53,514 bases of DNA from Candidatus Saccharimonadales bacterium. Its GTDB lineage: Bacteria; Patescibacteriota; Saccharimonadia; Saccharimonadales; DASWIF01. The notes beneath the pieces are model-generated. The model searched no databases. It was not told the DNA's origin and worked only from the letters and a program-made list of their open reading frames with translations. Location: the NCBI GenBank assembly GCA_036397795.1, contig DASWIF010000043.1, positions 1-53,514 of the forward strand. The letters run 5' to 3'. A program made the position numbers and the translations under genes. The number at the start of each line of letters is the position of its first letter. Position 1 is the stretch's first letter. This document shows, piece after piece, positions 18,448 through 43,472 of the stretch.

Positions 18448-18474
18448 TTAGCACTCTTGACTTGTGAGTGCCAA
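18448..18474. promoter_or_regulatory. CIRCE operator (HrcA binding site) 1
   Basis: TTAGCACTC-ttgacttgt-GAGTGCCAA, 17 of 18 matches to TTAGCACTC-N9-GAGTGCTAA. Confidence 0.8.
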
Positions 18475-18486
18475 ACCGGCTATAAT
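18457..18486 (+). promoter_or_regulatory. sigma70-type promoter of the hrcA operon
   Basis: TTGACT (18457-18462, inside the CIRCE-1 spacer), 18 nt spacer, TATAAT (18481-18486). Confidence 0.55.
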
Positions 18487-18494
18487 TACAGTTA

Positions 18495-18521
18495 TTAGCA
18501 CTTAAGCTAGGAGAGTGATAG
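18495..18521. promoter_or_regulatory. CIRCE operator 2 (degenerate)
   Basis: TTAGCACTT-aagctagga-GAGTGATAG, 15 of 18 matches. Overlaps the SD and lies just 5' of the GTG start of hrcA. Confidence 0.55.
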
Positions 18522-18525
18522 TTTA

Positions 18526-19233
18526 GTGACCGAGCGCCAAGCCGCCATCCTTGCGGCCATCGTTGAGCAGTATGCCGAAGTTATGTCTCCAGTCGGGTCC
18601 GTGACCCTGGCTAAGCTCTTTAACGCCTCTTCCGCTACAATTCGGGCCGAAATGGCCAAGCTGGAGGAAATGGGCTATGTTACCCATCCGCATACTAGCG
18701 CTGGCCGTATTCCGACCGACCAAGGCTACCGCTGGTTTGTTAACAGTTTAGGCGAACAAGACAAGGTTGGTGCCCCGACCATCAATCGCAGTGCGAGAGC
18801 GATTGATACCAGAGTTAGAAATGCTGGTGAACCGGATCAAGCTATTAGATCGGCTGTCCGTTCACTGGTTGAACTGACACAAAACGTTGGCCTGGCGACC
18901 ATTGGGCCGTCGCTTTATGTTAGAGGTTTTGCCAGCTTGTTTGACCAGCCTGAACTGATGAACTTCACTTCGGCTCGAGAGGTCGCCAGCTTGCTAGATA
19001 ACCTTGAGCCCTGGCTGAAAGAAGCCGGACTTAACCAGCCCCTAAGCGTTTATATCGGGCGGGAAAACCCGATTGGTAAAAACAGCGGCTGTACGCTAAT
19101 CATCTCTCGGTTTAGATCACCTTACTCTGATGAAAGTTATATCGGGGTTCTAGGCCCGACCAGACAGGATTACCGGACAGTTATTAACCTGGTTAGACAC
19201 ACCGGTCGGATGTTAGAAACCGTTCTCAATTAG
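18526..19233 (+). CDS. hrcA: heat-inducible transcription repressor HrcA (short form)
   Basis: N-terminal wHTH ERQAAILAAIVEQY...GSVTLAK...SSATIRAEMAKLEEMGYV..PHTSAGRIPT. Sits upstream of grpE-dnaK-dnaJ with CIRCE sites. Confidence 0.85.
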   Translation: MTERQAAILAAIVEQYAEVMSPVGSVTLAKLFNASSATIRAEMAKLEEMGYVTHPHTSAGRIPTDQGYRWFVNSLGEQDKVGAPTINRSARAIDTRVRNAGEPDQAIRSAVRSLVELTQNVGLATIGPSLYVRGFASLFDQPELMNFTSAREVASLLDNLEPWLKEAGLNQPLSVYIGRENPIGKNSGCTLIISRFRSPYSDESYIGVLGPTRQDYRTVINLVRHTGRMLETVLN

Positions 19234-19234
19234 A

Positions 19235-19714
19235 ATGAAGAAATCGACCAAACTCACCAGATCCAGTCCCGTCGCCCAGCTTGAAGCCAAGGTTGCGGAA
19301 TTGACTGACGATCTCCAGCGAGCCCGCGCTGACTTCATCAACTATAAGCAAAGGGCCGAGGTCGACAAGCATCGCTCAGTTCAGTTTGGCCGGGAGTCAG
19401 CTGTCATGTCGTTATTACCGATAATTGATAATATCGAACGCGCTCTTTCGCATCTTCCACCAGAGCTTAAAAGTAACGAGTGGGCTCAGGGTGTTAAGTC
19501 GATCGCCAAGCAGTTGCAGGATTCGCTTAAGGGTGTGGGTGTTGAAAAGATTAACTCGATTGCCCAACCGTTTGATCCCAACTTGCACGAGGCCATTGAG
19601 CTAGAAGACGGTACTGGCCATAAAGAAACAGTGGTGGAGGAGCTTCAACCCGGCTATACCATGGACGGCGAGGTCATTCGTCACGCGATAGTTAAAGTTA
19701 AGAGGGGTAAGTAA
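19235..19714 (+). CDS. grpE: nucleotide exchange factor GrpE
   Basis: RARADFINYKQRAE motif and the GrpE C-terminal beta domain. Confidence 0.9.
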   Translation: MKKSTKLTRSSPVAQLEAKVAELTDDLQRARADFINYKQRAEVDKHRSVQFGRESAVMSLLPIIDNIERALSHLPPELKSNEWAQGVKSIAKQLQDSLKGVGVEKINSIAQPFDPNLHEAIELEDGTGHKETVVEELQPGYTMDGEVIRHAIVKVKRGK

Positions 19715-19899
19715 TGGAAAGCGCCGACCCAAGGTACTATGAGGCTATCGAGGATGTTCGCCAGACACTAGATCAACCGGTGATTGACAGATTATCAGAG
19801 CGACCAACTGATCCAGCCGATGCCCTTGAAGACACTGGTGAACTAGAAAAAATTATCATTAACGCAGCTCGTAAGAAATACGAAGGCAAGGAGAATTAG
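19714..19899 (+). CDS. 61 aa acidic protein of unknown function within the chaperone operon
   Basis: TAATG stop-start overlap with grpE. Ends 3 nt before dnaK. Confidence 0.5.
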   Translation: MESADPRYYEAIEDVRQTLDQPVIDRLSERPTDPADALEDTGELEKIIINAARKKYEGKEN

Positions 19900-19902
19900 G
19901 CA

Positions 19903-21810
19903 ATGGGTAAAGTTCTAGGAATCGATTTAGGTACGACAAACTCGGCCATGGCCGTTATGGAAGGCGGCAAGCCGGAAATCATTACCAATAAAGAAGGCAA
20001 CCGCACTACCCCGAGCGTCGTCGCCATTAATAAAGGCAAGGAGCGCTTAGTGGGCGAGGTGGCCAAGCGCCAACGGGTGACCAATCCCGAAAATACTATC
20101 TTTGGGGTCAAGCGGTTGATCGGGCGCCGGTTTGAAGACAAGGAAGTTCAAAAGGATATCGATTTGATGCCGTATAAGATCGTTAAGAGCGGTAAAAGCG
20201 GCGTTAAAGTCAGACTAGGCGATAAAGACTACAGCTCGGAAGAGATCTCCGCTATGATACTTAGCAAAATCAAAGCCGACGCCGAGGCCTACCTTGGTAG
20301 CGATGTGACCGAAGCTGTCATTACGGTGCCAGCCTATTTTGACGATTCGCAGCGCCAAGCCACTAAAGACGCCGGTAAGATTGCCGGTTTGGAGGTCAAG
20401 CGCATCATAAACGAGCCTACGGCCGCCGCGCTAGCCTACGGGTTGGATAAGGCAGGCGATGAAAAAATTGCGGTTTTTGACCTCGGCGGCGGTACTTTTG
20501 ACGTTTCAATTCTGGAACTCGGCGACGGCGTTTTTGAAGTTAAAAGCACTAATGGTGATACCCATCTAGGGGGCGAAGACTTTGATATGGCCGTGGTGAA
20601 CCATCTGCTCGCCGAATTTAAGAAAAACAGTGGTATCGATCTTAAGGACGATAAATCGGCTATGCAACGCCTCAAGGAAGAGGCCGAAAAAGCTAAAAAA
20701 GAACTCTCGACTACAACTGAAGTTGACATTAACCTACCGTTTTTGACGGCTGACGAAAACGGTCCCAAACACTTTGAGCTCAAACTTAGCCGGGCGACAC
20801 TCGAGTCGTTGGTAGCCAGTCTTATCAAAAAGGTTGAAAAGCCGGTCAAGGATGCCCTCAAAGACGCCAAACTAACCGCCAAAGACATCAACAAAGTGAT
20901 TCTAGTTGGCGGTATGACCCGGATGCCGGCCGTTCAAGCCAAGGTCAAGGAACTATTTGGCCAGGACCCTGAACAAGGCGTAAATCCGGACGAAGTTGTC
21001 GCCATCGGTGCTGCCATCCAAGGTGGCGTTCTGGCGGGCGACGTTAAAGATGTGCTGCTGCTAGACGTTACTCCATTAAGTTTAGGGATTGAGACGCTAG
21101 GTGGCGTTATGACCAAGCTGATTGACCGCAATACCACTATTCCGACCAGCAAGTCCGAAGTATTTTCAACGGCAGCTGACAACCAGCCGCAAGTCGAAGT
21201 CCACGTGCTTCAAGGTGAGCGGGAAATGTCAGCTGACAACAACACGCTCGGCCGGTTTGTACTAGACGGAATCGCACCGGCCCCCAGAGGCGTGCCGCAA
21301 GTCGAAGTCAGCTTTAATATTGACGCGAATGGAATTTTAAACGTTACCGCTAAAGACAAAGCGTCAGGTAAAGAACAATCAATCACAATCAAAGACTCGG
21401 GGAACCTCGACAAAGAGGCGATTGAAAAGGCCCAAAAAGAAGCCGAAGAACACGCCGAGGAAGACAAAAGAAAACGGGCCGCGATTGACGCTAAGAACTT
21501 GCTTTCAACGGCAATCTACTCCGCTGAAAAAATGAAAGATGACTACAAAGACAAGTTAAGCGACGAAGATAAGCAAGTTATCGATGAAGCTATTGTTGAG
21601 GCCAAGAAGCACGAGTCGGCCGACGACAAGGAAGCGCTGGAGAAAGCTGCTAAGGGACTTAACGACAAAATCATGCCGATCGGCGCCAAACTGTACGAAG
21701 CAGCTGATGCCAAAAAGGACGAAGAGGCTGACAAAGCCGATGAAAAGAAGGATACTAAGTCCAAGAAAAAGGGAGACGACGCCGTCGAGGGCGAAGTAGT
21801 CGATTCGTAG
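19903..21810 (+). CDS. dnaK: molecular chaperone DnaK (Hsp70)
   Basis: [17 protein letters not shown], the full Hsp70 architecture, and a Lys/Glu-rich tail. Confidence 0.97.
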
Positions 21811-21836
21811 TTGGTATATGGTAGCTCGTAACTTGT

Positions 21837-22232
21837 ATGAAGAAAATCAGAAAATTTACTGACCTTGAGGCTTGGCAGGTTGTTCATCAGCTTCGGATTG
21901 CTGTATTAAAGGAAATACGATCCTTCCCCAAAGAATATGATTTCGGGTTGTCAACACAAATCCAGCGCTCGGCTGTGTCCGTTGGTTCAAACATCGCCGA
22001 AGGTTTCGGGAGAATTTCTGTAAAAGAGAAGCTTCGTTTCTATGACATAGCACGTGGGTCTCTCACTGAGTTGCAGGATAAGTTAATTACCGCCAGAGAC
22101 ATAGGGGTTTTGGAGAGCAGTCGGTTTAATACACTTGCTGAGATGTCAGTACGGTCGCAGAAGCTTATAAACGGGTTGATGTGGAGCTTGCGAACTACGA
22201 ACTCCGAACTACGAGATACGTTACATGTCTAA
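21837..22232 (+). CDS. four-helix-bundle protein (23S rRNA intervening-sequence protein family)
   Basis: FTDLEAWQ...FPKEY.F.L..QI.RSAVSVGSNIAEGFGR....E...F..IARGSL.EL signature. Confidence 0.75.
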   Translation: MKKIRKFTDLEAWQVVHQLRIAVLKEIRSFPKEYDFGLSTQIQRSAVSVGSNIAEGFGRISVKEKLRFYDIARGSLTELQDKLITARDIGVLESSRFNTLAEMSVRSQKLINGLMWSLRTTNSELRDTLHV

Positions 22233-23325
22233 ACGCGATTACTACGAAGTTTTGGGAGTCGCCAAAGGCGCTAGTGCTGATGAAATCAAAAAAGCTTACC
22301 GGCGTCTGGCAGTCCAGCTTCATCCTGATAAAGAAGGTGGCTCGGAGGACAAATTTAAAGAACTGAACGAAGCCTACCAGATATTGAGCAATCCGGATAA
22401 GCGCCAGCGCTACGACCAGTTCGGTCACGCCGGAGTCGGTTCTAGCGCCGCTAGCGACGGCGGGGGTTTTGGCGGTTTTGGCGGCCAGGGTCAGAGGGTT
22501 AATTTTGATTTTGGCGATTTAGGCCTTGGCGATATTTTTGAGAGTTTTTTTGGAACCGGATTTGGCAGTCGTGATCGAGCTGGCACCAGGCGCGGGCGGG
22601 ATTTGGAAGAAGAGGTAACACTCACTTTCGAAGAGGCAATTTTTGGCACAGACAAAGAGCTTTACATGTCCGTTGATGAAGCCTGCTCACATTGTCATGG
22701 CACTACAGTTGAACCGGGGCACTCGATGAAAGAATGCTCAACTTGCAGCGGCTCGGGTCAAGTCACCCAAGTCCATAACACCATATTGGGTCAAATCCGC
22801 CAAGCTCAGGTTTGCCCGACTTGCAAAGGCCGGGGCCAGATACCGGAAAAGGTTTGTACAATTTGTAAGGGTGCCGGCGTTGAACGCGAGCACAAGGATG
22901 TAAATATCAAGATTCCGCCCGGCATTGACGATGGTGCCACAATCAGGCTACGTGAGTATGGCGATGCGGTTGCCAATGGTTCTAGAGGTGATTTGTTCGT
23001 TCATATAAAGGTTAAGCCCCACAAAAAGTTTACCCGCGAGGGCGATCTTGTATTGAGCGAAGAGACAATCTCAATGGTTGACGCGACGTTAGGTACCGAA
23101 CTGAAAGTTGACACCGTAGAAGGCCCTAAAACCCTTAAAGTTCCGTCTGGTACCCAACCGGGTACGGATTTTAGACTTAAAGGACTCGGCGTCCCTCACA
23201 TCCGCGGGGGTGGCCGCGGCGACCAAATTGTCAGTATTAAAGTTGAAATACCCAAAAAACTCAGCAAGAAACAGCAAGAAGCTCTAAGAGGGTTTGAAAA
23301 TGGCGGTCACAAACTCTGGCGATAG
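22225..23325 (+). CDS. dnaJ: molecular chaperone DnaJ
   Basis: J-domain with HPD, G/F-rich region, four CxxCxG repeats, C-terminal GDQIVSIKVEIPKKLSKKQ. Confidence 0.95.
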   Translation: MSKRDYYEVLGVAKGASADEIKKAYRRLAVQLHPDKEGGSEDKFKELNEAYQILSNPDKRQRYDQFGHAGVGSSAASDGGGFGGFGGQGQRVNFDFGDLGLGDIFESFFGTGFGSRDRAGTRRGRDLEEEVTLTFEEAIFGTDKELYMSVDEACSHCHGTTVEPGHSMKECSTCSGSGQVTQVHNTILGQIRQAQVCPTCKGRGQIPEKVCTICKGAGVEREHKDVNIKIPPGIDDGATIRLREYGDAVANGSRGDLFVHIKVKPHKKFTREGDLVLSEETISMVDATLGTELKVDTVEGPKTLKVPSGTQPGTDFRLKGLGVPHIRGGGRGDQIVSIKVEIPKKLSKKQQEALRGFENGGHKLWR

Positions 23326-23336: not shown

Positions 23337-23365
23337 TTGATTAATATTCTTAACGGTGCTATAAT
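23337..23365 (+). promoter_or_regulatory. sigma70-type promoter positioned for a leaderless transcript
   Basis: TTGATT, 17 nt spacer, TGc-TATAAT (23360-23365). The ATG at 23372 is 7 nt after the -10 and has no SD. Confidence 0.45.
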
Positions 23366-23371: not shown

Positions 23372-24862
23372 ATGTCAGAACACTTTTCTGCGAGCAAAAC
23401 AGATATATTACAAAATAGTGAAATACTAGAGCGTTTTGCTGCGCATCCTTTTTCTACCCTTGAAACCTATCAATATTTTAATCAAAAGGGTGAGGCTGCT
23501 AAGCTCGTAAAAGCCGATTTTATAGCCAAAGCTCTGCAAGGTAATTCACCTGAAGCTCCAGATTTTAGTTACGAGTCTATTGATCTCGACGATTTATTAA
23601 TCAAGCGCGATGAGCTCACGGCTATTTTAGAAGAAGTATCTTTACTCGATATGACAAATGAGGAAAATACTCTAGCACGTGAGAATATAACGAATCGCAT
23701 TCACGAAGTCGGCATACTCATCCTCACCAAATTACAGAGCCAAACTGAAGTTGGCTCAGAACAATATGCGAACATTTCATATCAACTAGGTGAAAATATG
23801 CGCGAAGTCTATGGTGTACCAGAAGTAAACCACTGGCGGGGAATACTCGGCTATAGATTATCGCTGCTCAAAGAGGTTGAACACAGGAGTGACGTGCCTG
23901 ATCAAATTATATCAGCATGGCGTCGTATTTCAGATGAGTTTCCAAAAGACCTGCCAATCGAGAAACCTTATCAACCAAGACCAGAAACACTAGCTTGGTA
24001 TAAGGATCGCTTGGATGAGCGGCTTACTCCAGCCCGAGAAGCAGTTACTCGTGCCATAGAAAATGGCGAAGTTGGTTTATCTGATGAGGGTAAACTTGAT
24101 GCTCATAATATTGTCATTGCAACCAGGATAGCTCTTATAGCAGGGGGCGCCACTGGGTGGGGTGCTAAAATTACCACAGCGAGCAATATCGACACGTCCC
24201 AAACGGATATGATGGTTAATGTTCCCGAAACTAGCGAAATGACATTAAGCCAGTTTGACAGCGTAATAAATAGTCACGAAATTGATGAGCATGTTATACG
24301 GCGCGTAAACGGCGACAGCTCTGGCGTAGCAGTTCTTGGGGGTACTGGCTGCAACGGTTATCTTGATTGGGAAGAGGGAAATGGTAGGGCCAATGAGGGT
24401 TTGATTAAGGGGGAAATTATTAATCAGAACAGTGCTTTCTTGTATTTCCTTCACGGCGGACTTGCTCTGGGGCTTGACGGTGACAGGACTGGTCGTACAT
24501 TTGGCGCAACATTTGATCTAGTGTGTTTAATGAATTTAATTGATAGTTTTTTAGAGGGCAAAATTACAGCAGACAATATAGAAACAGAACAACGCAAGGT
24601 TATGGAATCGACTTACAACAGCCTCATGCGTATATACCGAGGCACAGATGGTAAAACACCGGGGGTAATATTTACCAAAGACGTCCTGTCATATTACTTA
24701 GGCCAAGTAAAAGTGTTCAGGAAGTGGGATAATGACATGAAGTTGTCTGAAGAAAAGCGCCTGGAAGAGCATAATCTCGAAAGGCGAGCAAAAATTGACC
24801 CTACACGCCCCGATCATCGACGAGTTGCTTCAAAATATTTACATGCCACCCCGATACGTTAG
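23372..24862 (+). CDS. DUF1704 / MATCAP-like putative metallocarboxypeptidase
   Basis: 496 aa. HExxxH (SHEIDEHV) followed about 30 residues later by WEEGNGRANEGL, resembling the HExxxH...QEGLA gluzincin signature of DUF1704. Visibly more AT-rich than its neighbours. Confidence 0.5.
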   Translation: MSEHFSASKTDILQNSEILERFAAHPFSTLETYQYFNQKGEAAKLVKADFIAKALQGNSPEAPDFSYESIDLDDLLIKRDELTAILEEVSLLDMTNEENTLARENITNRIHEVGILILTKLQSQTEVGSEQYANISYQLGENMREVYGVPEVNHWRGILGYRLSLLKEVEHRSDVPDQIISAWRRISDEFPKDLPIEKPYQPRPETLAWYKDRLDERLTPAREAVTRAIENGEVGLSDEGKLDAHNIVIATRIALIAGGATGWGAKITTASNIDTSQTDMMVNVPETSEMTLSQFDSVINSHEIDEHVIRRVNGDSSGVAVLGGTGCNGYLDWEEGNGRANEGLIKGEIINQNSAFLYFLHGGLALGLDGDRTGRTFGATFDLVCLMNLIDSFLEGKITADNIETEQRKVMESTYNSLMRIYRGTDGKTPGVIFTKDVLSYYLGQVKVFRKWDNDMKLSEEKRLEEHNLERRAKIDPTRPDHRRVASKYLHATPIR

Positions 24863-24869
24863 TTCGGTG

Positions 24870-25106
24870 ATTAGATTTGAAAACAGATACAACGATGTCC
24901 ATGAATAGGGTGAGCAAATTGGGTTGGTTAGAGCGAGTCTGGTTCCCCGAGTTCGGCATCCCCGCCGAAGGGGTTGTTGCTAAAACGACACCGGTGCAGA
25001 CAGCGGCGACCAAATTGTTAGTATCAAAGTAGAAATTCTTAAACGCTTAAGTAAAAAACAAGCCAAAATCTTAAGCGAACTCGAGCGTACCAACCAAAAA
25101 TTCTGA
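24870..25106 (+). pseudogene. decayed second copy of the dnaJ 3' end
   Basis: 25005-25106 translates to GDQIVSIKVEILKRLSKKQAKILSELERTNQKF*, compared with GDQIVSIKVEIPKKLSKKQQEALRGFE in intact DnaJ. Upstream similarity (LK.DT, G.P, VPRVR) is weaker, crosses stops at 24906 and 24981, and needs a frame change. Confidence 0.65.
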
Positions 25107-25184
25107 CTGAGAACTCTAGTCGTATGATGTGATTGGCGCTTAGGAAGTTTAGTTTTTTAAATACATTAGTTTAAGCTTAGTCGC

Positions 25185-26147
25185 ATGAAGAACCGAGGCA
25201 ATCCGACATTAGGCATATTCCGCGAGCGACGCAATATTGACTATTTCGAATTTAAAGCGCCGCATTATGAACTAGCCCATTTTGAGCTCTATAAAAAACT
25301 GCTGCAAAAGGGCATTCAACTGGCAATTTTGATGGGGCAGTCGACATATGTTAGCGGGAATCAGTTTTCGCGTCATTGGCAAGTAGTTTTTGAAAAACGC
25401 CTGAGCCCAAAATTTTTACCGGCTGGGGCGGTTGAGCCGAATCTCATTCTAGTCAAGGATGAGCTTAAGTTTGATGAGCGAGCTTCTACTTTAAACAACT
25501 CAGAAATTATTGAAATCGCAGCCAATAAACAAAGAACATATGAATTATTTAGCGATCTACAACCCACCACGTTTGTAGCAAAAAACAAATCCGAGTTGGC
25601 GGTCGCGTTGGATAAACTCGCAGGCGATTCGGTGGTGGTCAAGGGTTTTTATGGTAATTCAGGCCAGACAGTAGAGATCGGTCTTAAGGAGGATGTGTTA
25701 AGTAATAAATGGGTTTGGCCTGTCCAAGCTCAGGAATTTGTCGATACATCTGGGGGTATTCCTGGTCTAGTCGAGGGTCGCCATGATTTGAGAGTTATCA
25801 TGGCCAACAACCAGCCTATTTTGGGTAAGATCCGTACCCCACCTCGCGGCGGTCTTAAGTCTAATACAGGCTATGGCGGCAATAACTGGCTGATAGCTGT
25901 AGACTCGTTGCCGAGAGACGTCTTATCACTCACTAAGTCAATAGATAATAGGTTGTCGTCCATCTCCCCCTGGCGCCTGTACTCAATCGATCTTGGGCTG
26001 ACTAATAGAGGATATCGACTTTTTGAATTAAACGATAAACCTGGTGTAGTTAGCCTCTCCCAGGGCGAGCCAGCTACGTTTTATCAAAATGCCTATGTTG
26101 ATTTTCTAGTTAATGCGACAAAATGGTATGCGGAAAGGGCTCTATGA
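25185..26147 (+). CDS. ATP-grasp amidoligase (RimK/YheCD/TTL-like), specificity unknown
   Basis: VVVKGFYGNSGQTVEIG, HDLRVIM, GLKSNTGYGG, and LFELNDKPG parallel the RimK motifs in the downstream gene. Confidence 0.6.
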   Translation: MKNRGNPTLGIFRERRNIDYFEFKAPHYELAHFELYKKLLQKGIQLAILMGQSTYVSGNQFSRHWQVVFEKRLSPKFLPAGAVEPNLILVKDELKFDERASTLNNSEIIEIAANKQRTYELFSDLQPTTFVAKNKSELAVALDKLAGDSVVVKGFYGNSGQTVEIGLKEDVLSNKWVWPVQAQEFVDTSGGIPGLVEGRHDLRVIMANNQPILGKIRTPPRGGLKSNTGYGGNNWLIAVDSLPRDVLSLTKSIDNRLSSISPWRLYSIDLGLTNRGYRLFELNDKPGVVSLSQGEPATFYQNAYVDFLVNATKWYAERAL

Positions 26148-26596
26148 AAAATCTTACTAAGCAAGTTTTGGGTCGAGCAGCACAAGTTAACCTGCCGGAA
26201 TTCGGCGTGTCGGGCCTGCCAGCCAAAGTGGATACAGGCGCCTATAGTAGTTCGATTGACTGTTCAAAAGTAGTAGAGTTGGAGAAAAACGGTCAGAAAG
26301 TGTTGGAATTCACATTGTTTCACCCAGACAACCCACTCTATAGCGGTGCAATTCTAGCTACCAGCGACTATACCACCACCGAAGTCACTAGCTCACACGG
26401 AGTTAGCCAGCGTTTTGTACTCTATACAGATATAGAATTAAATGGTAGGGTTGTGCGATCCAGAATTACGTTGACGAATCGTAAGGGTTTACGTTACCCA
26501 TTGCTGTTGGGGCGTCAGTTTTTAACCAAACAATTCTTGGTTGATGTCGATCTAGGTACCGGCTTGCCAGGTGACGAAGAGGAGCGAAATTTATGA
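26144..26596 (+). CDS. retropepsin-like aspartic peptidase (RimB / 'ATP-dependent zinc protease' family)
   Basis: KVDTGAYSSS aspartic-protease-type DTG motif. About 150 aa. ATGA overlap with both flanking genes. The RimK partnership is typical of this family. Confidence 0.6.
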   Translation: MKNLTKQVLGRAAQVNLPEFGVSGLPAKVDTGAYSSSIDCSKVVELEKNGQKVLEFTLFHPDNPLYSGAILATSDYTTTEVTSSHGVSQRFVLYTDIELNGRVVRSRITLTNRKGLRYPLLLGRQFLTKQFLVDVDLGTGLPGDEEERNL

Positions 26597-27495
26597 AAAT
26601 TGCGATTTTATCTCGCGGGCGGGATAATTACACTACCAAACGTCTGGTTGAAGAAATCAAAAAAGCTGGTCACACTGCCCAAGTTGTCAATCATGCCGAA
26701 TGCTATGTAGAAATTGAACAAGACACGCCCGACGTAAGATATCGAGGAGAGGACATCAGCGGGATTGATGTGATTATCCCGAGAATTGGGGCCAGTATTA
26801 CTACCTACGGTTCAGCTATCGTCCGCCAATTCGAGATGATGGGCGTTTACACGACGGCTAAATCAATCGCCATTCAGCGATCACGTGATAAATTACGCAG
26901 TCTGCAGCTGTTGAGCAGAACTGGCGTCGGGATTCCACGGACAATCTTTAGCCGTGAAACCAGCGAAGTAGATGACTTAGTCGAACAAATCGGCGCCCCG
27001 ATGATTGTCAAGGTTGCACGAGGTACGCACGGCCGCGGTGTAGTGCTGGCCGAGACCAAAAAAGCAGCCAAATCAGTCATCCAGGCTTTTTACGTGGAGC
27101 AGGTGTCAATTTTGCTCCAGGAGTTTATCGAAGAATCGGCCGGGAGCGACATCAGGGCTCTAGTAGTTGGCGGTCGGGTGGTGGCCAGCATGCAACGGCA
27201 GAGTTTAACGGACGACTTTCGAAGCAATCTCCACCAGGGTGGTGAGGGCAAAAAGGTAAAGTTGACCGAAGAAGAGCGGAAAACAGCCCTGAAGGCTGCG
27301 CAGGCGATGGGTTTGTCAATCTGTGGTGTCGATATGGTTAGAAGTAAACGCGGTCCGTTGGTTTTGGAGGTAAACTCTTCACCTGGGCTTCAGGGAATCG
27401 AAACCGTTACTGGTCGCAACATCGCTAAAAAAATTATCGAATACATCGAGGTTAATGCTAAACGTAAGCTCAAAAAGGACAAGGTGGGTGCGTAG
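26593..27495 (+). CDS. rimK: RimK-family alpha-L-glutamate ligase (ribosomal protein S6 modification-type ATP-grasp)
   Basis: MIVKVARGTHGRGVVLAE, DIRALVVGGRVV, FRSNLHQGG, GVDMV...LVLEVNSSPG. Confidence 0.85.
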   Translation: MKIAILSRGRDNYTTKRLVEEIKKAGHTAQVVNHAECYVEIEQDTPDVRYRGEDISGIDVIIPRIGASITTYGSAIVRQFEMMGVYTTAKSIAIQRSRDKLRSLQLLSRTGVGIPRTIFSRETSEVDDLVEQIGAPMIVKVARGTHGRGVVLAETKKAAKSVIQAFYVEQVSILLQEFIEESAGSDIRALVVGGRVVASMQRQSLTDDFRSNLHQGGEGKKVKLTEEERKTALKAAQAMGLSICGVDMVRSKRGPLVLEVNSSPGLQGIETVTGRNIAKKIIEYIEVNAKRKLKKDKVGA

Positions 27496-27940
27496 AAAAC
27501 CAAGAAGAACTTGGCATTTATTGATTGGCCTAGCGCTAGTCTTAGCGGGCGGTTATATTATCTATAATCAATTGAAACCAATCGGATCCAATCTTAGAAT
27601 TGAGGATAGTATTATCAGGCTGGATGTGGCCGATGAGCCGGAGGAAATTATCCAGGGGCTGAGTGGCCGAGAGTCTTTGCTCGGTGATGAGGGTATGTTA
27701 TTTATCTTTGAACAACCAAACATTCCTCAGTTTTGGATGAAAGATATGCTCATCCCGATTGATTTCGTTTGGATTAGCGAAGATATGAAGATTGTGGCGA
27801 TTACACCTTCTATCGGACCCGATAGCTACCCGATAGTGTTTTCACCTCCGTCAGAGGTTAAATACGTACTAGAAGTCTATGCCGGTGTTAGTGCTGCTAA
27901 CGGCTGGCTTCCTGGTTCTGATGTAGAATTTTCTTTGTAG
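27455..27940 (+). CDS. DUF192 domain protein with N-terminal TM anchor
   Basis: GLSGRESLLGDEGMLFIF....FWMKDMLIPIDFVWI pattern typical of DUF192 (COG1430). Overlaps the rimK 3' end. Confidence 0.6.
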   Translation: MLNVSSKRTRWVRRKPRRTWHLLIGLALVLAGGYIIYNQLKPIGSNLRIEDSIIRLDVADEPEEIIQGLSGRESLLGDEGMLFIFEQPNIPQFWMKDMLIPIDFVWISEDMKIVAITPSIGPDSYPIVFSPPSEVKYVLEVYAGVSAANGWLPGSDVEFSL

Positions 27941-27985: not shown

Positions 27986-28017
27986 CCATAGGGGCATTCT
28001 ATAGAATGCCCCTATGG
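27986..28017. repeat. 32 bp perfect palindrome (copy 1), overlapping the ATG of the ArsR-like gene
   Basis: CCATAGGGGCATTCTA|TAGAATGCCCCTATGG. The ATG at 28014 lies inside the right arm. Confidence 0.9.
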
Positions 28018-28292
28018 AACAAACTAAACTAACGTCTTATGTGAGGGTATTTAAAGCACTGGCCAACCATCGTCGACTCTCCCTGTTTAACTTCATCGCT
28101 GATTATCCTAATAAATCAGTTATGCAACTGGCAGACGAGTTAGATTTTTCGTATAAAAGTACAGCTCAGCACCTAACTAAACTGGCGAGCGCTGGTTTAA
28201 TCACTAAATCCCCGGTTAATAACCAATCTATTCAATCGGTTTCACCCTTTGGTCAAAAAGTACTAACTAACTTGTCAAAGCTGATTTCGTGA
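28014..28292 (+). CDS. ArsR/SmtB-like winged-helix transcriptional regulator
   Basis: 92 aa. FKALANHRRLSLFNFI....SVMQLADEL..S..STAQHLTKLASAGLI is an ArsR-type HTH. Confidence 0.6.
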   Translation: MEQTKLTSYVRVFKALANHRRLSLFNFIADYPNKSVMQLADELDFSYKSTAQHLTKLASAGLITKSPVNNQSIQSVSPFGQKVLTNLSKLIS

Positions 28293-34669: not shown

Positions 34670-34957
34670 TTACTCGAAGGGATTAGTCCGGCCCGGCGCG
34701 AAAATCGAATTGACGTCAACCCGTAGATCTCTCAATCTGACAATGGTTTGAACAGCTTGTTGGTCGAACTTAACCTCGTCTATATCGCTCAAGGCTTGCT
34801 GGTAAGCTTGCTCGTCTCTTTCTGGACTCAGCTCGGAATTAACCAATGAAACACTGTAAATGCAGAGTCCGACAACCACCAGCCCGAGCAATGAGTATCG
34901 ATAGTTGCTGAAGAACCTTAGTACCTGTTTTAGTTGTGGTTTAATTTTGTTTAACAT
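34670..34957 (-). CDS. small single-TM protein co-transcribed with pilMNO (PilP-like position)
   Basis: Abuts the pilO-like stop. One TM segment. C-terminal GRTNPFE. Confidence 0.45.
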   Translation of the reverse strand: MLNKIKPQLKQVLRFFSNYRYSLLGLVVVGLCIYSVSLVNSELSPERDEQAYQQALSDIDEVKFDQQAVQTIVRLRDLRVDVNSIFAPGRTNPFE

Positions 34958-35560
34958 TTAAGGCCTCACGTAAACATTAACTTCTAATTGTCCCTGGTAA
35001 CCGACAATGCGAGTACTGTTATTAGTGCCGACAATTTCTTCTTTTATGGGGTTAATTGTCAAATTTGATATTTGAAGTTTACGGCGATTCTTTTCCAAAT
35101 TCGTTAAAAAGTTAAGAAACTTAGCATAAGCATTAGTCTCATACGTTATATTTGCGCTCAGAACAAAAACACCTGAGACACCATCTAAAGGAGTTGTTTG
35201 TGTCAAATTTGGATCGGTTACCTGGCGACCGCTCGGGGTGGTGAAAGTGATTGACCGAAGGACAACGTCAGCTTGATTGCCGATTTTGTAAATCTCACCA
35301 ATAAAGTTTGACTGGACCTTGGTTGGCGGCAACACGTCCTGGGCAATGGACTCGATAAAACCGAGATCCTCGTACTGCACGAGTACGGTTTGGGCTTGTT
35401 GAACTCTTATGTCGATTGCATCTACATCGGCTTTGAGCTGGCTTAAGCTTAAAGCCCGCTTTGCCAACTGGGTTTTGGCGAAATAAAATCCACTTGCCGT
35501 CAGACCTAAGACAACCAACAGAGAAGCAAGTAGAAGAATAAATGATTTTTTTGGGCTCAT
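34958..35560 (-). CDS. pilO: type IV pilus assembly protein, PilO-like
   Basis: N-terminal TM plus coiled coil. Position after pilN. 4 nt overlap with pilN. Confidence 0.55.
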   Translation of the reverse strand: MSPKKSFILLLASLLVVLGLTASGFYFAKTQLAKRALSLSQLKADVDAIDIRVQQAQTVLVQYEDLGFIESIAQDVLPPTKVQSNFIGEIYKIGNQADVVLRSITFTTPSGRQVTDPNLTQTTPLDGVSGVFVLSANITYETNAYAKFLNFLTNLEKNRRKLQISNLTINPIKEEIVGTNNSTRIVGYQGQLEVNVYVRP

Positions 35561-36126
35561 CTTTTTAACTCCTGCTTGGCTCCGGGGGTAAACTTGACAT
35601 CAATTTGGAAGGCATACCTATCCGGGCCGCTGTCGTTTTGAATCAGCGAAATACTGACAATATCAGCCTGCTCAAATAAATCGGTCGTGTTTGCCAGGTT
35701 TTCTCGAAAAACAGTTGGTCCTAACTCGCTGTTGGACTCACCCCGGATGCTTAGATTATTGGCGACTTCATTGGTTAGTTCCAGACTACTAATCGTTGTG
35801 CCCTGGGGTACCACTCCACCAATTGCTGGGAGCAGTTTGGAAAACGATGTCTCTCGCTCTAACAGGGCTGCGATAACGTCAATTCGCTCTGCCAGAGTCT
35901 TAGCTTTTGTCAGCTCTTCAGCGTACTGATCTAGCCCTGATTGTTTATCCTTGACCAAGTCTTTTAATAAACGCTCTTCGCGCGAGGCTAATAGTAAACC
36001 GAAGTAAAGAATGCCGACTAAAACAGTACCCAATATGATGGACAATAAAGTGTAGCGAACCACTCGGACGTTATAACGACCAAATTTGACGTTGGCTTTA
36101 TAGTTTCGAGGAAGCAGATTAATCAT
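35557..36126 (-). CDS. pilN: type IV pilus assembly protein PilN
   Basis: MINLLPRNY start motif, one TM segment, 4 nt overlap with pilM. Confidence 0.7.
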   Translation of the reverse strand: MINLLPRNYKANVKFGRYNVRVVRYTLLSIILGTVLVGILYFGLLLASREERLLKDLVKDKQSGLDQYAEELTKAKTLAERIDVIAALLERETSFSKLLPAIGGVVPQGTTISSLELTNEVANNLSIRGESNSELGPTVFRENLANTTDLFEQADIVSISLIQNDSGPDRYAFQIDVKFTPGAKQELKR

Positions 36127-37181
36127 ATGTCACCACTCTTTAACAGACTCAAACCGACAGCAGTGCTGTACAAAGTGCGTTCAAGTTTATGGGGTGGTTG
36201 CAGCCGGCCAAAACTAATATTTTGTAACGGATCGACTAAACGGGTTGCAATCCTTAACTTATCAGTCAAATAACCGCTCAAGCCCGGCAGATTAGCCCCG
36301 CCACCTAAGATTACGATTTGGGATATCTTGCTGTTGTCTCCTGAACGCTCTGTGTAAAATCTTGAAATTCGCCTAATTTCGTTGATGAGTTGAGTAAGTA
36401 CTGGTTGGAGGGCTTTGGCGATTTGAGTTTGTTTTTTGCTGACATCTAGCCCGTAACGATTCTTGATAGTTTGCGCCTGTCGCAAGCTGACCCTTAAGAC
36501 TTTGGCGATTTCTTTTGAAAGCGTTTCACCGCCCCAGTCAGCGGTCCCAGTCACTCTAATCGTGTGGTCAAATACGGCTAAGTCTGAACTGATTGATCCA
36601 AAATCAATTATCAAGGTCGGGACAGAGGTATTATCGGCGTGGCTAACTGTTCTAGCCACGGAATTAATTGTTGTTTCAAACAATACTACCTCCAGGCCAA
36701 GTACGGCAAACAGGTTCAGGTATGAGTCCACAATACTCTTGGGCGCGGCGACAACTAAAACCTCAACCGATCCATCTTTAGCATGGTATACCACCTCGTA
36801 ATCCACGTACAACTCAGCCAAAGGGACCGGAATTGATTGCTCCACTTCCAGAAGAATTGCGCTCTCAACATCCTTACTTTCCATTGGTGGCAGGGTTACT
36901 ATCCGGCTATATGTAAGACCGGCCGGCAAGGCAGAAGTAACGCGTTTTGTTTCAATTTTTCCAATGATGTTACTTTTGAATAATTTAACCGTTTGCTTAG
37001 CGATGGTTTCAATGTCAACCAAAACGCCCTTTTTGACGGCGATTGGATCAAAGTCAATAGTTCCATAGCCAATAACGGAAGTTTTGCGACCGTTTTTTTC
37101 AACCTGGACAACTTTAATTGAACTATGCCCTAAATCGAAACCAAAAATTGGCTTATCCTTATAAAATACTGGTGCATTCAT
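36123..37181 (-). CDS. pilM: type IV pilus assembly ATPase-fold protein PilM
   Basis: Actin-like fold motifs GFDLGHSSIKVV, IIDFGSISSD, ILGGGANLPGL. Confidence 0.85.
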   Translation of the reverse strand: MNAPVFYKDKPIFGFDLGHSSIKVVQVEKNGRKTSVIGYGTIDFDPIAVKKGVLVDIETIAKQTVKLFKSNIIGKIETKRVTSALPAGLTYSRIVTLPPMESKDVESAILLEVEQSIPVPLAELYVDYEVVYHAKDGSVEVLVVAAPKSIVDSYLNLFAVLGLEVVLFETTINSVARTVSHADNTSVPTLIIDFGSISSDLAVFDHTIRVTGTADWGGETLSKEIAKVLRVSLRQAQTIKNRYGLDVSKKQTQIAKALQPVLTQLINEIRRISRFYTERSGDNSKISQIVILGGGANLPGLSGYLTDKLRIATRLVDPLQNISFGRLQPPHKLERTLYSTAVGLSLLKSGDI

Positions 37182-37299
37182 TGATAATCATAAGCATTAT
37201 TTAGCTTAAGTATAACAATAAAGAATAACCGACACTACATATCCTAATTCAGTTCAATTCATTGCGCTAGAAGTTAGTTATAGCTACTATATAGCTATA

Positions 37300-37689
37300 G
37301 TGCTTAAGTATAAAAATGGCTTCACGATTACCGAGTTATTGGTTGCGATTGCCTTGTTTGCAATCGTAGTTCCTTTGATGGCTGTTGGAATAAATAATCT
37401 CACCGTTCTTAATAATCGGGCGAGGGATCTAGCGCTAGCCAACACGATTGCTCAGAACAAAGTCGAGTTGCTTCGTAGCACCGGATTTAACAGTCTTATA
37501 GCCGGCACGGTCGACTTCAGCGACGAGTTGCCAGCAACTTTTTCTCAACCGCGCTCGGCCAACTACACCATTACGGACGATTCGTCCTCAGTGAAAGAAG
37601 TAACGGTTATAATAACTTATAAAGATTACGGTTCAACAAAAACCATTGAATACAAAAGTGCTATTAGTGAGCTCGGGGTAGCCCAATGA
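37300..37689 (+). CDS. minor (pseudo)pilin with prepilin-type N-terminal signal
   Basis: MLKYKNG|FTITELLVAIALFAIV class III signal with Glu at +5. Confidence 0.75.
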   Translation: MLKYKNGFTITELLVAIALFAIVVPLMAVGINNLTVLNNRARDLALANTIAQNKVELLRSTGFNSLIAGTVDFSDELPATFSQPRSANYTITDDSSSVKEVTVIITYKDYGSTKTIEYKSAISELGVAQ

Positions 37690-39745: not shown

Positions 39746-39810
39746 GTAGTTAGAACTACTCTATGATGCAATTCCAAGATTCTTTGCGTCCTATATAACT
39801 ACGGATTATT

Positions 39811-39843
39811 AAAAACCAGCCCTCGTCGATAGGGCTGGTTTTT
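39811..39843. terminator. bidirectional intrinsic terminator between convergent pilus genes
   Basis: AAAAA-CCAGCCCT-cgtcgat-AGGGCTGG-TTTTT. Confidence 0.65.
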
Positions 39844-39870
39844 AAAACCTAAATAGCTTAAGAAGCAGAC

Positions 39871-43470: not shown

Positions 43471-43472
43471 GC

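What the first reader, a model, noticed from the sequence alone, without database searches (positions are those of the whole stretch)
23372..27940. Two ATP-grasp ligases, two peptidases and a DUF192 protein: candidate module that adds and removes protein C-terminal tails
Seen in sequence:
- Genes at 25185-27940 form one translationally coupled chain, with ATGA overlaps at 26144-26147 and 26593-26596 and a 41 nt overlap at 27455-27495.
- Both ligases carry ATP-grasp motifs: xRSN/KSNxxxGG and ELN/EVNxxPG.
- The gene between them has a retropepsin-type DTGA motif.
- The neighbouring gene at 23372-24862 has HEIDEH followed by an (E/N)EG(L) motif, as in DUF1704.

Established knowledge:
- RimK adds poly-alpha-glutamate to the C-terminus of ribosomal protein S6.
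- In Pseudomonas rimABK, the retropepsin-like RimB trims that tail.
- DUF1704 is the catalytic fold of eukaryotic MATCAP, which removes the C-terminal Tyr of tubulin. That residue is added by the ATP-grasp ligase TTL.

Inference: a second, divergent ATP-grasp ligase plus a MATCAP-like carboxypeptidase next to RimK and RimB suggests a two-step or two-residue tail code, for example a Glu tail with a different capping residue, each with its own remover. The cluster sits directly after the hrcA-dnaKJ operon. I do not know of this five-gene combination being described.
Basis: partly seen in the sequence, partly recalled or inferred. Interest (0 to 1): 0.75.

Follow-up and report, generated by a model that had tools for sequence, protein, structure and literature searches.

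The report
Bacterial RimK tail-ligase locus with MATCAP-like peptidase
A Saccharibacteria genome places a relative of the human tubulin-tail-trimming enzyme MATCAP next to RimK/RimB (the pair that adds and cuts glutamate tails on a ribosomal protein) and a second ligase, and this peptidase-ligase pairing recurs across distant bacteria, hinting at an ancient bacterial counterpart of the tubulin tail code.

Summary
All five ORFs, the ATGA overlaps and every quoted motif are present.

**Family calls**
- 26593-27495 is RimK (NCBIfam equivalog, 336 bits against a 331 cutoff).
- 26144-26596 is a RimB-like retropepsin (PF05618, 1e-19).
- 27455-27940 is DUF192.
- 25185-26147 is a divergent but intact ATP-grasp of the GshB/RimK/LysX clade, not TTL-like.
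- 23372-24862 is a divergent MATCAP/DUF1704-superfamily zinc peptidase. Its direct Pfam hit is below threshold. Membership rests on a true PF08014 paralog next door in relatives, on 79 of 83 distant relatives hitting PF08014, and on a family profile that reaches human MATCAP (7z5g, 2e-9). H302/E303/H307/E335 align with MATCAP H280/E281/H285/E316.

**Gene linkage**
- 9 of 10 assessable MATCAP-family lineages have a RimK-superfamily ATP-grasp within 4.5 kb. This includes Alphaproteobacterial plasmids.

**What is not conserved**
- The exact five-gene set is not conserved. The core is dnaJ, MATCAP-like, a variable slot, RimB, RimK.
- The slot holds one of several ligase types, a second MATCAP paralog, or nothing.
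- DUF192 is optional.

**Reading**
- The locus most likely extends and trims C-terminal or oligo-glutamate chains, with RimB cutting internally and the MATCAP-like enzyme trimming from the end.
- The substrate and the "two-residue code" are untested.
- Novelty: new variant of a known kind.

The parts
23372..24862 (+). Gene 1: a 496-aa divergent zinc metallopeptidase of the MATCAP/DUF1704 (QEGLA) superfamily. It carries HEIDEH at 302-307 and EEG at 334-336. It is probably a carboxypeptidase.
   Evidence: - Direct Pfam hit to PF08014 is below threshold: 19.3 bits against a cutoff of 27.
- 14 of 27 close relatives give weak PF08014 hits.
- A true PF08014 paralog (61 bits) sits next door in L006. 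It aligns with residues 302-448 of gene 1 at 1e-9.
- 79 of 83 distant relatives hit PF08014.
- Profile A3 hits human MATCAP 7z5g at 2e-9.
- E303, H307, E335 and K474 are invariant across those relatives.
- The AF2 model has mean pLDDT 91.6.
24993..25103 (+). Decayed remnant of a dnaJ 3' end inside the 322-nt spacer between gene 1 and gene 2. It is a scar of the rearrangement that placed gene 1 here.
   Evidence: - tblastn of the window's DnaJ residues 328-364 gives 57% identity over 37 aa, E = 1.3e-8.
- A 34-nt stretch is 91% identical to the intact dnaJ 3' end.
25185..26147 (+). Gene 2: a 320-aa divergent ATP-grasp carboxylate-amine ligase of the GshB/RimK/LysX clade. It is the accessory 'second ligase'.
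   Evidence: - Pfam hits to RimK and GSH-S_ATP are about 20 bits, just below cutoff.
- Family profile A2 hits Pseudomonas RimK 7qyr at 3.3e-10.
- The AF2 model has mean pLDDT 91.6.
- Foldseek top hits are 1gsa at 1.5e-14, 4iwx and 5k2m.
- K153, R203, N227, D269, E281 and N283 are invariant in the family.
- hhalign against the QEGLA-partner 'glutathione synthetase' of Mesorhizobium gives 97.6% probability.
26144..26596 (+). Gene 3: a RimB-like retropepsin-type aspartic peptidase of 150 aa (157 aa if it starts at 26123). The DTG catalytic Asp is D30. It has no signal peptide.
   Evidence: - PF05618 at 9.9e-20.
- The best NCBIfam hit is RimB at 68.5 bits, below the equivalog cutoff of 200.
- D30 corresponds to RimB's catalytic D31 (PMC11957791).
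- ATGA overlaps at both ends.
26593..27495 (+). Gene 4: RimK, a poly-alpha-L-glutamate / ribosomal protein S6 C-terminal glutamate ligase (300 aa).
   Evidence: - NF007764 equivalog at 336.2 bits against a cutoff of 331.
- PF08443 at 4e-63 and Rimk_N at 6e-38.
27455..27940 (+). Gene 5: a DUF192 protein (161 aa) with a basic N-terminus and one predicted membrane helix at about residues 22-40. It is an optional member of the locus.
   Evidence: - PF02643 at 1.7e-25.
- Hydrophobic segment found.
- Present after RimK in L001, L006, L014, L018 and L027.
- Absent in L007-L010 and L054.
18448..23325 (+). Upstream context: two CIRCE operators followed by the hrcA-grpE-dnaK-(IVS protein)-dnaJ heat-shock operon. 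The locus follows it in every Patescibacteria-type relative.
   Evidence: - CIRCE matches at 18448-18474 and 18495-18521, with 0.01 expected by chance.
- Synteny shown.

Best explanation
This is a composite locus for adding and removing C-terminal or oligo-glutamate chains. It sits in a Candidatus Saccharibacteria genome.

**Proposed steps**
- RimK (gene 4) extends an acceptor with alpha-linked glutamates. [quoted passage not shown]
- The RimB-like retropepsin (gene 3) cuts long Glu runs internally.
- The MATCAP-family zinc peptidase (gene 1) acts from the free C-terminal end, trimming residues one at a time. That would remove the short tails RimB cannot cut, or a terminal residue that blocks or caps the tail.
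- The GshB/RimK-like ligase (gene 2) is a lineage-variable accessory that adds one more residue to a C-terminal carboxylate, as initiator or as cap.
- DUF192 is an optional, probably membrane-anchored passenger.

**Shown here**
- The family identities of the five proteins.
- Intact catalytic motifs.
- Translational coupling of genes 2 to 5.
- Deep, repeated gene linkage between MATCAP-family peptidases and RimK-superfamily ligases.

**Inferred**
- The substrate.
- Exo-acting activity of gene 1.
- The residue added by gene 2.
For: **Family identities**

**Zinc site of gene 1**
- H302/E303/H307/E335 align with H280/E281/H285/E316 of human MATCAP.
- These positions are invariant or nearly so across 83 relatives that are 20-28% identical.
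- PMC10499314 reports for this family an HExxxH motif plus an EEG third ligand, loss of activity in E281A, carboxypeptidase action on acidic tubulin tails, and removal of polyglutamylation.

**RimB's limit**
- RimB needs about 5-6 contiguous Glu to cut, so short tails escape it (PMC11957791, section 7).

**Linkage**
- The order dnaJ, MATCAP-like, slot, RimB, RimK recurs in L001, L004/7, L006, L008-L010, L012, L014, L019 and L022-L027. Gene 1 identity in these falls as low as 21-28%.
- Distant QEGLA-like genes lie typically about 4-13 nt after a RimK-family ligase (L029-L050).
- 21 of 25 loci with enough flank have a ligase within 4.5 kb, as do 9 of 10 lineages after de-duplication.
- Mesorhizobium and Shinella plasmids carry a true TIGR02421 protein next to a true NF009110 ATP-grasp.

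**Gene 2 looks active**
- The ATP-grasp residues at the expected catalytic positions are invariant in gene 2's family.
Against: - No substrate was identified. The S6 gene is not in the window or in any fetched locus.
- Gene 1's direct Pfam score is below threshold.
- Foldseek of its confident model listed DUF885, M32 carboxypeptidase and ACE among the 50 matches shown, all weakly, and not MATCAP.
- Gene 1 is separated from the coupled chain by 322 nt containing a dnaJ remnant, so co-transcription is not shown.
- Most close relatives come from one phylum with conserved gene order. Part of the linkage is therefore shared ancestry.
- One close homolog (L002, 46% identity) has no ligase within 8 kb.
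- The Proteobacterial trio includes an N-formylglutamate amidohydrolase, which points to small-molecule or short-peptide substrates rather than protein tails.
Confidence: 0.6

Rival explanations
1. The locus handles free peptides rather than protein tails. The ligases (RimK, the GshB-like gene 2, and the cyanophycin-synthetase-like versions in relatives) build free poly-alpha-glutamate or short acidic peptides, for example as a store, an osmolyte or a signal. The two peptidases break them down, RimB internally and the MATCAP-like enzyme from the end.
For: - RimK makes free poly-alpha-Glu, and RimB stimulates that synthesis and modulates Glu/poly-Glu pools (PMC11957791; PMC12239564 introduction).
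- The second ligases in L001, L009, L012 and L035 score 170-225 bits on cyanophycin synthetase models.
- Gene 2's top fold hit is glutathione synthetase 1gsa.
- The Proteobacterial QEGLA partners are a GshB-subfamily ligase and an N-formylglutamate amidohydrolase.
- No tailed protein substrate was found.
Against: - The window's RimK passes the S6-ligase equivalog cutoff.
- The only characterised members of gene 1's family act on protein C-termini (PMC10499314).
- The two readings are not exclusive, since Pseudomonas RimK does both.
Confidence: 0.25
2. The locus writes a two-residue tail code: RimK adds Glu, gene 2 adds a different capping residue, and each has a dedicated remover, with RimB removing Glu and the MATCAP-like enzyme removing the cap. 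This would parallel TTL and MATCAP on tubulin.
For: - There are two ligases and two peptidases in one locus.
- Gene 2's substrate loop (RTPPRGGLKSNTGYGG) differs from RimK's, which is compatible with a different amino-acid specificity.
- The ligase type in the slot varies between lineages, as expected if the added residue varies.
- MATCAP removes a terminal Tyr that an ATP-grasp ligase adds (established knowledge).
Against: - Many relatives keep MATCAP-like, RimB and RimK with no second ligase: L010, L014, L022/23 and L027.
- Others have a second MATCAP paralog instead: L006, L011, L018 and L019.
- L054 has gene 2, RimB and RimK without any MATCAP-like gene. So gene 1 and gene 2 are not an obligate writer-eraser pair.
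- Gene 2 is not TTL-like.
- No specificity data exist.
Confidence: 0.15
3. Gene 1 is functionally unrelated to the ligases. It would be a general cytoplasmic metallopeptidase that sits after dnaJ through inherited gene order, perhaps expressed with the heat-shock operon for protein quality control.
For: - It always follows dnaK-dnaJ in Patescibacteria-type loci.
- A 322-nt gap and a dnaJ remnant separate it from the coupled chain.
- L002 has it without ligases.
- A promoter-like site lies just upstream of it at 23337-23365.
Against: - MATCAP-family genes are next to RimK-superfamily ligases in lineages with no dnaJ nearby and in another phylum: L016, L029-L050, L035, L056 and L057.
- Chance adjacency to a ligase family with only a few genes per genome is very unlikely to recur in 9 of 10 lineages.
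Confidence: 0.08

Closest known systems
Pseudomonas rimABK system (RimK glutamate ligase, RimB retropepsin-like endopeptidase, RimA EAL phosphodiesterase)
   Same: - RimK is an ortholog at equivalog level.
- A PF05618 retropepsin with the DTG Asp at the same position sits immediately upstream and overlaps rimK.
- Both proteins are cytoplasmic.
   Different: - There is no RimA. A GGDEF gene occurs nearby in some relatives.
- The retropepsin scores far below the RimB equivalog cutoff (68.5 against 200).
- The locus adds a MATCAP-family metallopeptidase, a second ATP-grasp and DUF192. None of these appears in the rim papers read here (PMC11957791, PMC10092738, PMC12239564).
- It lies downstream of the heat-shock operon.
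Eukaryotic tubulin tail cycle: TTL/TTLL ATP-grasp ligases with MATCAP/TMCP (KIAA0895L/KIAA0895) and CCP carboxypeptidases
   Same: - An ATP-grasp ligase adds residues to an acidic C-terminal tail, and a DUF1704-family HExxxH/EEG zinc carboxypeptidase removes them.
- TMCPs also deglutamylate (PMC10499314).
- The zinc ligands and the catalytic Glu are conserved in gene 1.
   Different: - The ligases here are RimK/GshB-type, not TTL-type.
- The substrate is not tubulin.
- Gene 1 has a roughly 240-residue helical N-terminal region and is only distantly related to MATCAP. The link is by profile only (2e-9), and Foldseek did not list MATCAP among the 50 matches shown.
- In eukaryotes the genes are not clustered.
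Proteobacterial trio: N-formylglutamate amidohydrolase, TIGR02421 'flavohemoglobin expression-modulating QEGLA motif protein', NF009110 'glutathione synthetase'
   Same: - A MATCAP-family protein sits directly next to a GshB-like ATP-grasp.
- Gene 2 and its homologs in L007 and L054 have NF009110 as best or near-best NCBIfam hit.
   Different: - The trio has no RimK or RimB.
- It has an amidohydrolase instead.
- Its QEGLA protein is 617 aa.
- Gene 1 scores only 21 bits on TIGR02421, and gene 2 only 30 bits on NF009110.
- The function of the trio is itself unknown.
Pseudomonas rloABC (secreted retropepsin RloA, inactive transglutaminase RloB, ATP-grasp RloC)
   Same: - A retropepsin-like peptidase is paired with an ATP-grasp ligase.
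- Gene 3 gives weaker hits to the RloA models.
   Different: - Gene 3 has no signal peptide.
- There is no transglutaminase-like membrane protein.
- The ligase is true RimK.

Membership tests
MATCAP / DUF1704 (Pfam PF08014; NCBIfam TIGR02421 QEGLA) | Score at or above the curated cutoff of the family model | tested here: not met
   - PF08014: 19.3 bits against a cutoff of 27, covering only residues 408-457.
- TIGR02421: 21 bits against a cutoff of 338.65.
MATCAP / DUF1704 (Pfam PF08014; NCBIfam TIGR02421 QEGLA) | Homology to bona fide members shown by profile or by transitive search | tested here: met
   - The A1 profile finds 1,061 relatives.
- 79 of 83 sampled relatives hit PF08014, best 1.2e-27.
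- Profile A3, which includes gene 1, hits human MATCAP 7z5g at 2e-9.
- The L006 paralog scores 61 bits on PF08014 and aligns to gene 1 at 1e-9.
MATCAP / DUF1704 (Pfam PF08014; NCBIfam TIGR02421 QEGLA) | HExxxH zinc motif with a catalytic Glu, plus a third ligand in an EEG motif | tested here: met
   - HEIDEH at 302-307 and WEEG at 333-336.
- E303, H307 and E335 are invariant and H302 is at least 90% conserved over 83 relatives.
- They align with H280/E281/H285/E316 of MATCAP.
- The motif definition is from PMC10499314.
MATCAP / DUF1704 (Pfam PF08014; NCBIfam TIGR02421 QEGLA) | Fold similarity to the solved MATCAP structure | tested here: inconclusive
   - Foldseek of the pLDDT 91.6 model against the PDB gave only weak hits: DUF885 3iuk at 2.8e-3, M32 carboxypeptidase 3dwc, and ACE.
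- MATCAP is not among the 50 matches shown, of 78 found.
MATCAP / DUF1704 (Pfam PF08014; NCBIfam TIGR02421 QEGLA) | Metal-dependent carboxypeptidase activity on acidic C-terminal tails | not testable with these tools
   This needs a biochemical assay.
RimK (S6--L-glutamate ligase, NF007764) | Equivalog-level score, with pre-ATP-grasp and ATP-grasp domains | tested here: met
   - NF007764: 336.2 bits against a cutoff of 331.
- TIGR00768: 265.9 against 143.4.
- PF08443 at 4e-63 and PF18030 at 6e-38.
RimK (S6--L-glutamate ligase, NF007764) | The substrate, ribosomal protein S6, has an acidic (Glu) C-terminus in the same organism | not testable with these tools
   - No S6 gene is in the window or in any fetched locus.
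RimB (retropepsin-like aspartic endopeptidase) | PF05618 domain with a DTG catalytic Asp near the N-terminus, no signal peptide, and a gene adjacent to rimK | tested here: met
   - PF05618 at 9.9e-20.
- VDTGA with D30, against RimB D31 (PMC11957791, section 6).
- No hydrophobic N-terminus.
- Its stop overlaps the rimK start.
RimB (retropepsin-like aspartic endopeptidase) | NCBIfam equivalog score | tested here: not met
   NF052261 scores 68.5 bits against a cutoff of 200. It is still the best of the four retropepsin models.
ATP-grasp ligase, GshB/RimK/LysX clade (gene 2) | ATP-grasp fold with a pre-ATP-grasp domain and conserved Lys, Arg, Asn, Asp, Glu, Asn at the expected catalytic positions | tested here: met
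   - Foldseek hits: 1gsa at 1.5e-14, 4iwx at 3.1e-14, 5k2m with TM 0.64-0.74.
- The A2 profile hits 7qyr at 3.3e-10.
- K153, R203, N227, D269, E281 and N283 are invariant.
ATP-grasp ligase, GshB/RimK/LysX clade (gene 2) | Membership of a named curated subfamily (RimK family TIGR00768, or glutathione synthetase NF009110) | tested here: not met
   - TIGR00768: 35.1 bits against a cutoff of 143.4.
- NF009110: 30.4 bits against 408.
- Gene 2's own family has only 14 clusters at 90% identity.
TTL (tubulin-tyrosine ligase family, PF03133) | A significant match of either ligase to the TTL model or to TTL structures | tested here: not met
   - Gene 2 has no TTL hit at E <= 0.1.
- RimK scores 13.3 bits, E = 0.049, against a cutoff of 20.1.
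- No TTL structure appears among gene 2's top 50 fold hits.
DUF192 (PF02643) | Score at or above the Pfam cutoff | tested here: met
   89.4 bits against a cutoff of 27, covering the full-length domain at residues 54-159.

The most novel reading that the evidence does not exclude
MATCAP-family carboxypeptidases and ATP-grasp C-terminal ligases are an ancient cognate writer-eraser pair that arose in bacteria. The eukaryotic tubulin tyrosination and glutamylation cycle would descend from, or replay, such a bacterial system. In Saccharibacteria the pair has merged with RimK and RimB into a multi-enzyme system. A lineage-variable second ligase would set a composite C-terminal tail on a ribosomal or chaperone-linked protein, with expression tied to the heat-shock operon.
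Probability: 0.25. Interest if true: 0.85.

Novelty: new variant of a known kind. Interest (0 to 1): 0.62.

Why it matters
- RimK/RimB polyglutamylation of S6 is one of the few known reversible ribosome modifications in bacteria. MATCAP was identified only recently as a tubulin tail-trimming enzyme (PMC10499314, 2023).
- If bacterial MATCAP relatives are habitual partners of RimK-type ligases, a large uncharacterised family gains a concrete, testable function: trimming ligase-made C-terminal tails or oligo-glutamate from the end. That family has more than 1,000 representatives at 50% identity and is currently annotated as 'flavohemoglobin expression-modulating QEGLA motif protein'.
- It would fill a gap in the RimB mechanism, because RimB cannot cut short tails.
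- It would offer a bacterial model, and a possible evolutionary source, for the eukaryotic tubulin tail code.
- The variable ligase slot suggests natural diversity in which residue is added.
- I found no paper in the searchable library that links MATCAP or KIAA0895 with RimK or ATP-grasp enzymes. One key comparative-genomics paper (Iyer et al. 2009) could not be read.

Tried and rejected
1. The close-family profile (A1) against PDB sequences gave no MATCAP hit. Only the broader profile A3 reached it.
2. Foldseek of the gene 1 model against the PDB did not list MATCAP among the 50 matches shown. The weak hits were to DUF885, M32 and ACE. I therefore do not claim fold-level confirmation.
3. The TTL or YheC/D identity for gene 2 is rejected.
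4. The 159-164-aa genes after RimK in L007-L010 and L054 are not divergent DUF192. They are a conserved polytopic membrane protein.
5. There is no CIRCE heat-shock operator near genes 1 or 2. The only two are upstream of hrcA.
6. The promoter and terminator scans were no better than shuffled sequence, so operon boundaries are not established.
7. The S6 gene and Glu-tailed ORFs were sought in the window and in all 58 loci. None was found.
8. The 37-aa ORF between the MATCAP-like gene and the ligase in L012 looks like a small membrane peptide, not an acidic substrate.
9. The metagenome scan with the 83-sequence alignment failed for lack of a conserved stretch. It was repeated with 14 sequences.
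10. The third large homolog search, with the broad alignment, only re-found the close family.
11. Iyer et al. 2009 (PMC3268129) is not held, so prior description there cannot be excluded.
12. The 587-591-aa proteins in the L006 and L011 slot have no Pfam hit, and the L006 protein has no PDB match.

Full report
**1. The observation**

All five ORFs exist at the stated coordinates on the + strand.

The junctions are as described:
- ATGA is at 26144-26147. An in-frame ATG at 26123 is an alternative start.
- ATGA is at 26593-26596, with AGGAG 9 nt upstream.
- The DUF192 ORF starts at 27455, inside the last 41 nt of rimK. A GTG at 27488 would reduce the overlap to 8 nt.

Every quoted motif is present in the translations: KSNxxxGG and ELNxxPG in gene 2, RSNxxxGG and EVNxxPG in gene 4, DTGA in gene 3, and HEIDEH plus WEEGNGRANEGL in gene 1.

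Gene 1 is separated from the coupled chain by 322 non-coding bases.

The cluster follows hrcA-grpE-dnaK-dnaJ directly. Two CIRCE operators lie upstream of hrcA only (0.01 matches expected by chance).

**2. What each gene is**

- **Gene 4** is RimK at equivalog level: NF007764 scores 336.2 bits against a cutoff of 331, PF08443 gives 4e-63, and Rimk_N gives 6e-38.
- **Gene 3** is a PF05618 retropepsin (9.9e-20).
  - Its best NCBIfam match is RimB, although well below the equivalog cutoff (68.5 against 200).
  - Its DTG aspartate is D30, matching the catalytic D31 of Pseudomonas RimB (PMC11957791).
  - It has no signal peptide, unlike the secreted RloA enzymes (PMC12239564).
- **Gene 5** is DUF192 (1.7e-25). 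It has a basic N-terminus and one hydrophobic helix.
- **Gene 2** falls just under the Pfam cutoffs (about 20 bits).
  - Its 14-member family profile hits Pseudomonas RimK 7qyr at 3.3e-10.
  - Its model (pLDDT 91.6) matches glutathione synthetase 1gsa, RimK and LysX/ArgX at 1e-14 to 1e-12.
  - The ATP-grasp residues at the expected catalytic positions are invariant in the family.
  - There is no TTL signal.

**3. Is gene 1 a MATCAP/DUF1704 protein?**

Direct evidence is weak:
- PF08014 scores 19.3 bits against a cutoff of 27, and only over residues 408-457.
- The close-family profile finds nothing relevant in the PDB.
- Foldseek of a confident model (pLDDT 91.6, pTM 0.88) returns only weak hits to other helical gluzincin carboxypeptidases (DUF885, M32, ACE). 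MATCAP is not among the 50 matches shown.

Transitive evidence is strong:
- In L006, L011, L018 and L019 the next gene is a 436-aa paralog. In L006 it scores 61 bits on PF08014 and aligns with gene 1 residues 302-448 at 1e-9.
- An exhaustive profile search finds 1,061 relatives.
- 79 of 83 sampled relatives hit PF08014, best 1.2e-27.
- The 83-sequence profile that includes gene 1 hits human MATCAP (KIAA0895L, 7z5g) at 2e-9. The match lies on the HEIGTH, EEGLA and RG-TD...PG...KD blocks.

The active site is conserved:
- E303, H307, E335 and K474 are invariant across these relatives, which are 20-28% identical. H302 is nearly invariant.
- H302, E303, H307 and E335 correspond to H280, E281, H285 and E316 of MATCAP.
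- PMC10499314 defines the family by an HExxxH motif plus an EEG third ligand. It shows that E281A is inactive, and it reports both tail-trimming and deglutamylase activity.

I therefore file gene 1 as a divergent member of the superfamily, not of the curated Pfam or TIGR families.

**4. Is the neighbourhood meaningful?**

In Saccharibacteria and related contigs the order dnaJ, MATCAP-like, slot, RimB-like, RimK recurs.
- It holds even where gene 1 identity is only 21-28%: L012, L014 and L022-L027.
- That alone could be inherited gene order.

More telling are lineages with no dnaJ nearby:
- L016 has RimB-like, RimK-like ligase and a true PF08014 protein.
- A 17-locus lineage (L029-L050) mostly has a RimK-family ligase, typically about 4-13 nt upstream of a QEGLA-like gene.
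- L035 pairs the peptidase with a cyanophycin-synthetase-like ligase.
- Mesorhizobium and Shinella plasmids carry N-formylglutamate amidohydrolase, a true TIGR02421 protein (374 bits) and a true NF009110 ATP-grasp (470 bits).

The counts:
- 21 of 25 loci with at least 1.2 kb on both sides have a ligase within 4.5 kb.
- After collapsing to lineages at 40% identity or more, 9 of 10 assessable lineages do. In 6 the ligase is directly adjacent, and 6 also carry a RimB-like gene.

**5. What is not conserved**

The exact five-gene set is seen only in the window. The slot between the MATCAP-like gene and RimB holds different things in different lineages:

| Slot content | Loci |
|---|---|
| GshB-like ligase | window, L007 |
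| Cyanophycin-synthetase-like ligase | L008/9, L012 (inverted and upstream in L001) |
| 452-aa ATP-grasp_3 protein | L024-26 |
| Second MATCAP paralog | L006, L011, L018, L019 |
| Nothing | L010, L014, L022/23, L027 |

- L054 has dnaJ, a gene 2 homolog, RimB and RimK with no MATCAP-like gene.
- The window's spacer holds a decayed dnaJ 3' end at 24993-25103. It is 57% identical over 37 aa at E = 1.3e-8, and a 34-nt stretch is 91% identical to the intact dnaJ 3' end. Gene 1 therefore reached its present place by rearrangement.
- DUF192 is present in the window and five other loci and absent in five. The gene of about 160 aa that follows RimK elsewhere is an unrelated membrane protein.

**6. Mechanism**

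The best-supported reading is a locus that extends and trims C-terminal or oligo-glutamate chains.
- RimK extends.
- RimB cuts long Glu runs internally but needs about 5-6 contiguous Glu (PMC11957791, section 7).
- A MATCAP-type carboxypeptidase trimming from the end would handle short tails or a terminal blocking residue.
- The variable second ligase would add an initiating or capping residue.

The substrate could not be examined, because no S6 gene is in the window or in any locus.

The main rival is metabolism of free poly-Glu or short peptides.
- It is favoured by the GshB-like and cyanophycin-like character of the accessory ligases, and by the amidohydrolase in the Proteobacterial trio.
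It is weakened by the many loci that lack a second ligase, and by L054.

**7. Novelty**

The RimK/RimB pair is known. Operons that combine an ATP-grasp ligase with a peptidase are an established idea (cited in PMC3495828 and PMC4431377).

I found no paper in the searchable library that combines MATCAP or KIAA0895 with RimK or ATP-grasp. None that I read mentions DUF1704 or DUF192 in this context. Iyer et al. 2009 was not available.

I rate this a new variant of a known kind, with real interest for two reasons. It assigns a testable role to a large uncharacterised bacterial family, and it mirrors the eukaryotic tubulin tail system.

Noticed in passing
window 24993-25103: A decayed copy of the dnaJ 3' end (GDQIVSIKVEILKRLSKKQAKILSELERTNQKF*) lies in the spacer between gene 1 and gene 2. 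A 34-nt stretch within it is 91% identical to the intact dnaJ 3' end upstream. It marks a rearrangement or partial duplication that inserted gene 1.
   Followed up: yes
window 18448-18474 and 18495-18521: Two CIRCE (HrcA operator) inverted repeats lie upstream of hrcA. The first overlaps the best promoter-like site of the region (TTGACT-18-TATAAT at 18457-18486). There are none elsewhere in the window.
   Followed up: partly
window 21837-22232: A four-helix-bundle '23S rRNA intervening sequence protein' gene (PF05635, 1.6e-30) is wedged between dnaK and dnaJ and overlaps the dnaJ start by 8 nt. Relatives have different unrelated genes in this gap.
   Followed up: no
window 23337-23365: A promoter-like site, TTGATT-17-TATAAT with an extended -10 TG, ends 6 nt before the gene 1 ATG. 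This could mean a leaderless transcript. The scan as a whole was no better than shuffled sequence.
   Followed up: no
window 34670-43623: A type IV pilus gene cluster: PilM (36126-37181, minus strand), several prepilin-type N-methylation-motif proteins (37300-39745 and 39874-40344), a PilC-like T2SSF protein (40444-41670) and a PilB-like T2SSE ATPase (41683-43623).
   Followed up: partly
L006 11490-12800 and 13020-14783; L011 789-2099 and 2319-4094; L018 1573-2883; L019 2305-3609: Some Saccharibacteria carry two tandem MATCAP-family genes: the 499-aa type plus a 436-aa true PF08014 type. In L006 and L011 these are followed by a 587-591-aa protein with no Pfam hit (the L006 protein also has no PDB match), in place of a second ligase.
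   Followed up: partly
L052 4827-9250 (also L053): A 33%-identical homolog of gene 2 sits between an ArsR-type HTH gene and groES-groEL, with clpB nearby and no RimK or RimB. This is a second case of such a ligase beside chaperone genes. The window also has an ArsR-like gene at 28014-28292, just after DUF192.
   Followed up: no
L012 6634-6747 (also L013): A 37-aa ORF (MKKLMHNQDGLIPLLLVVLAVVVGIIVLVYMRVINAQ) lies between the MATCAP-like gene and the cyanophycin-synthetase-like ligase. It looks like a small single-pass membrane peptide.
   Followed up: no
L012, L014, L022-L027: Sortase and/or GGDEF-domain genes lie between dnaJ and the MATCAP-like gene in more distant relatives. This is of note because Pseudomonas RimK is regulated by cyclic-di-GMP and by the EAL protein RimA.
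   Followed up: no
L020 (whole locus): This metagenome contig shows the dnaJ, MATCAP-like and RimB-like genes broken into many short ORFs on both strands, with an apparent inverted duplication. It is probably an assembly chimera or a heavily frameshifted sequence, and it was left out of the counts.
   Followed up: no
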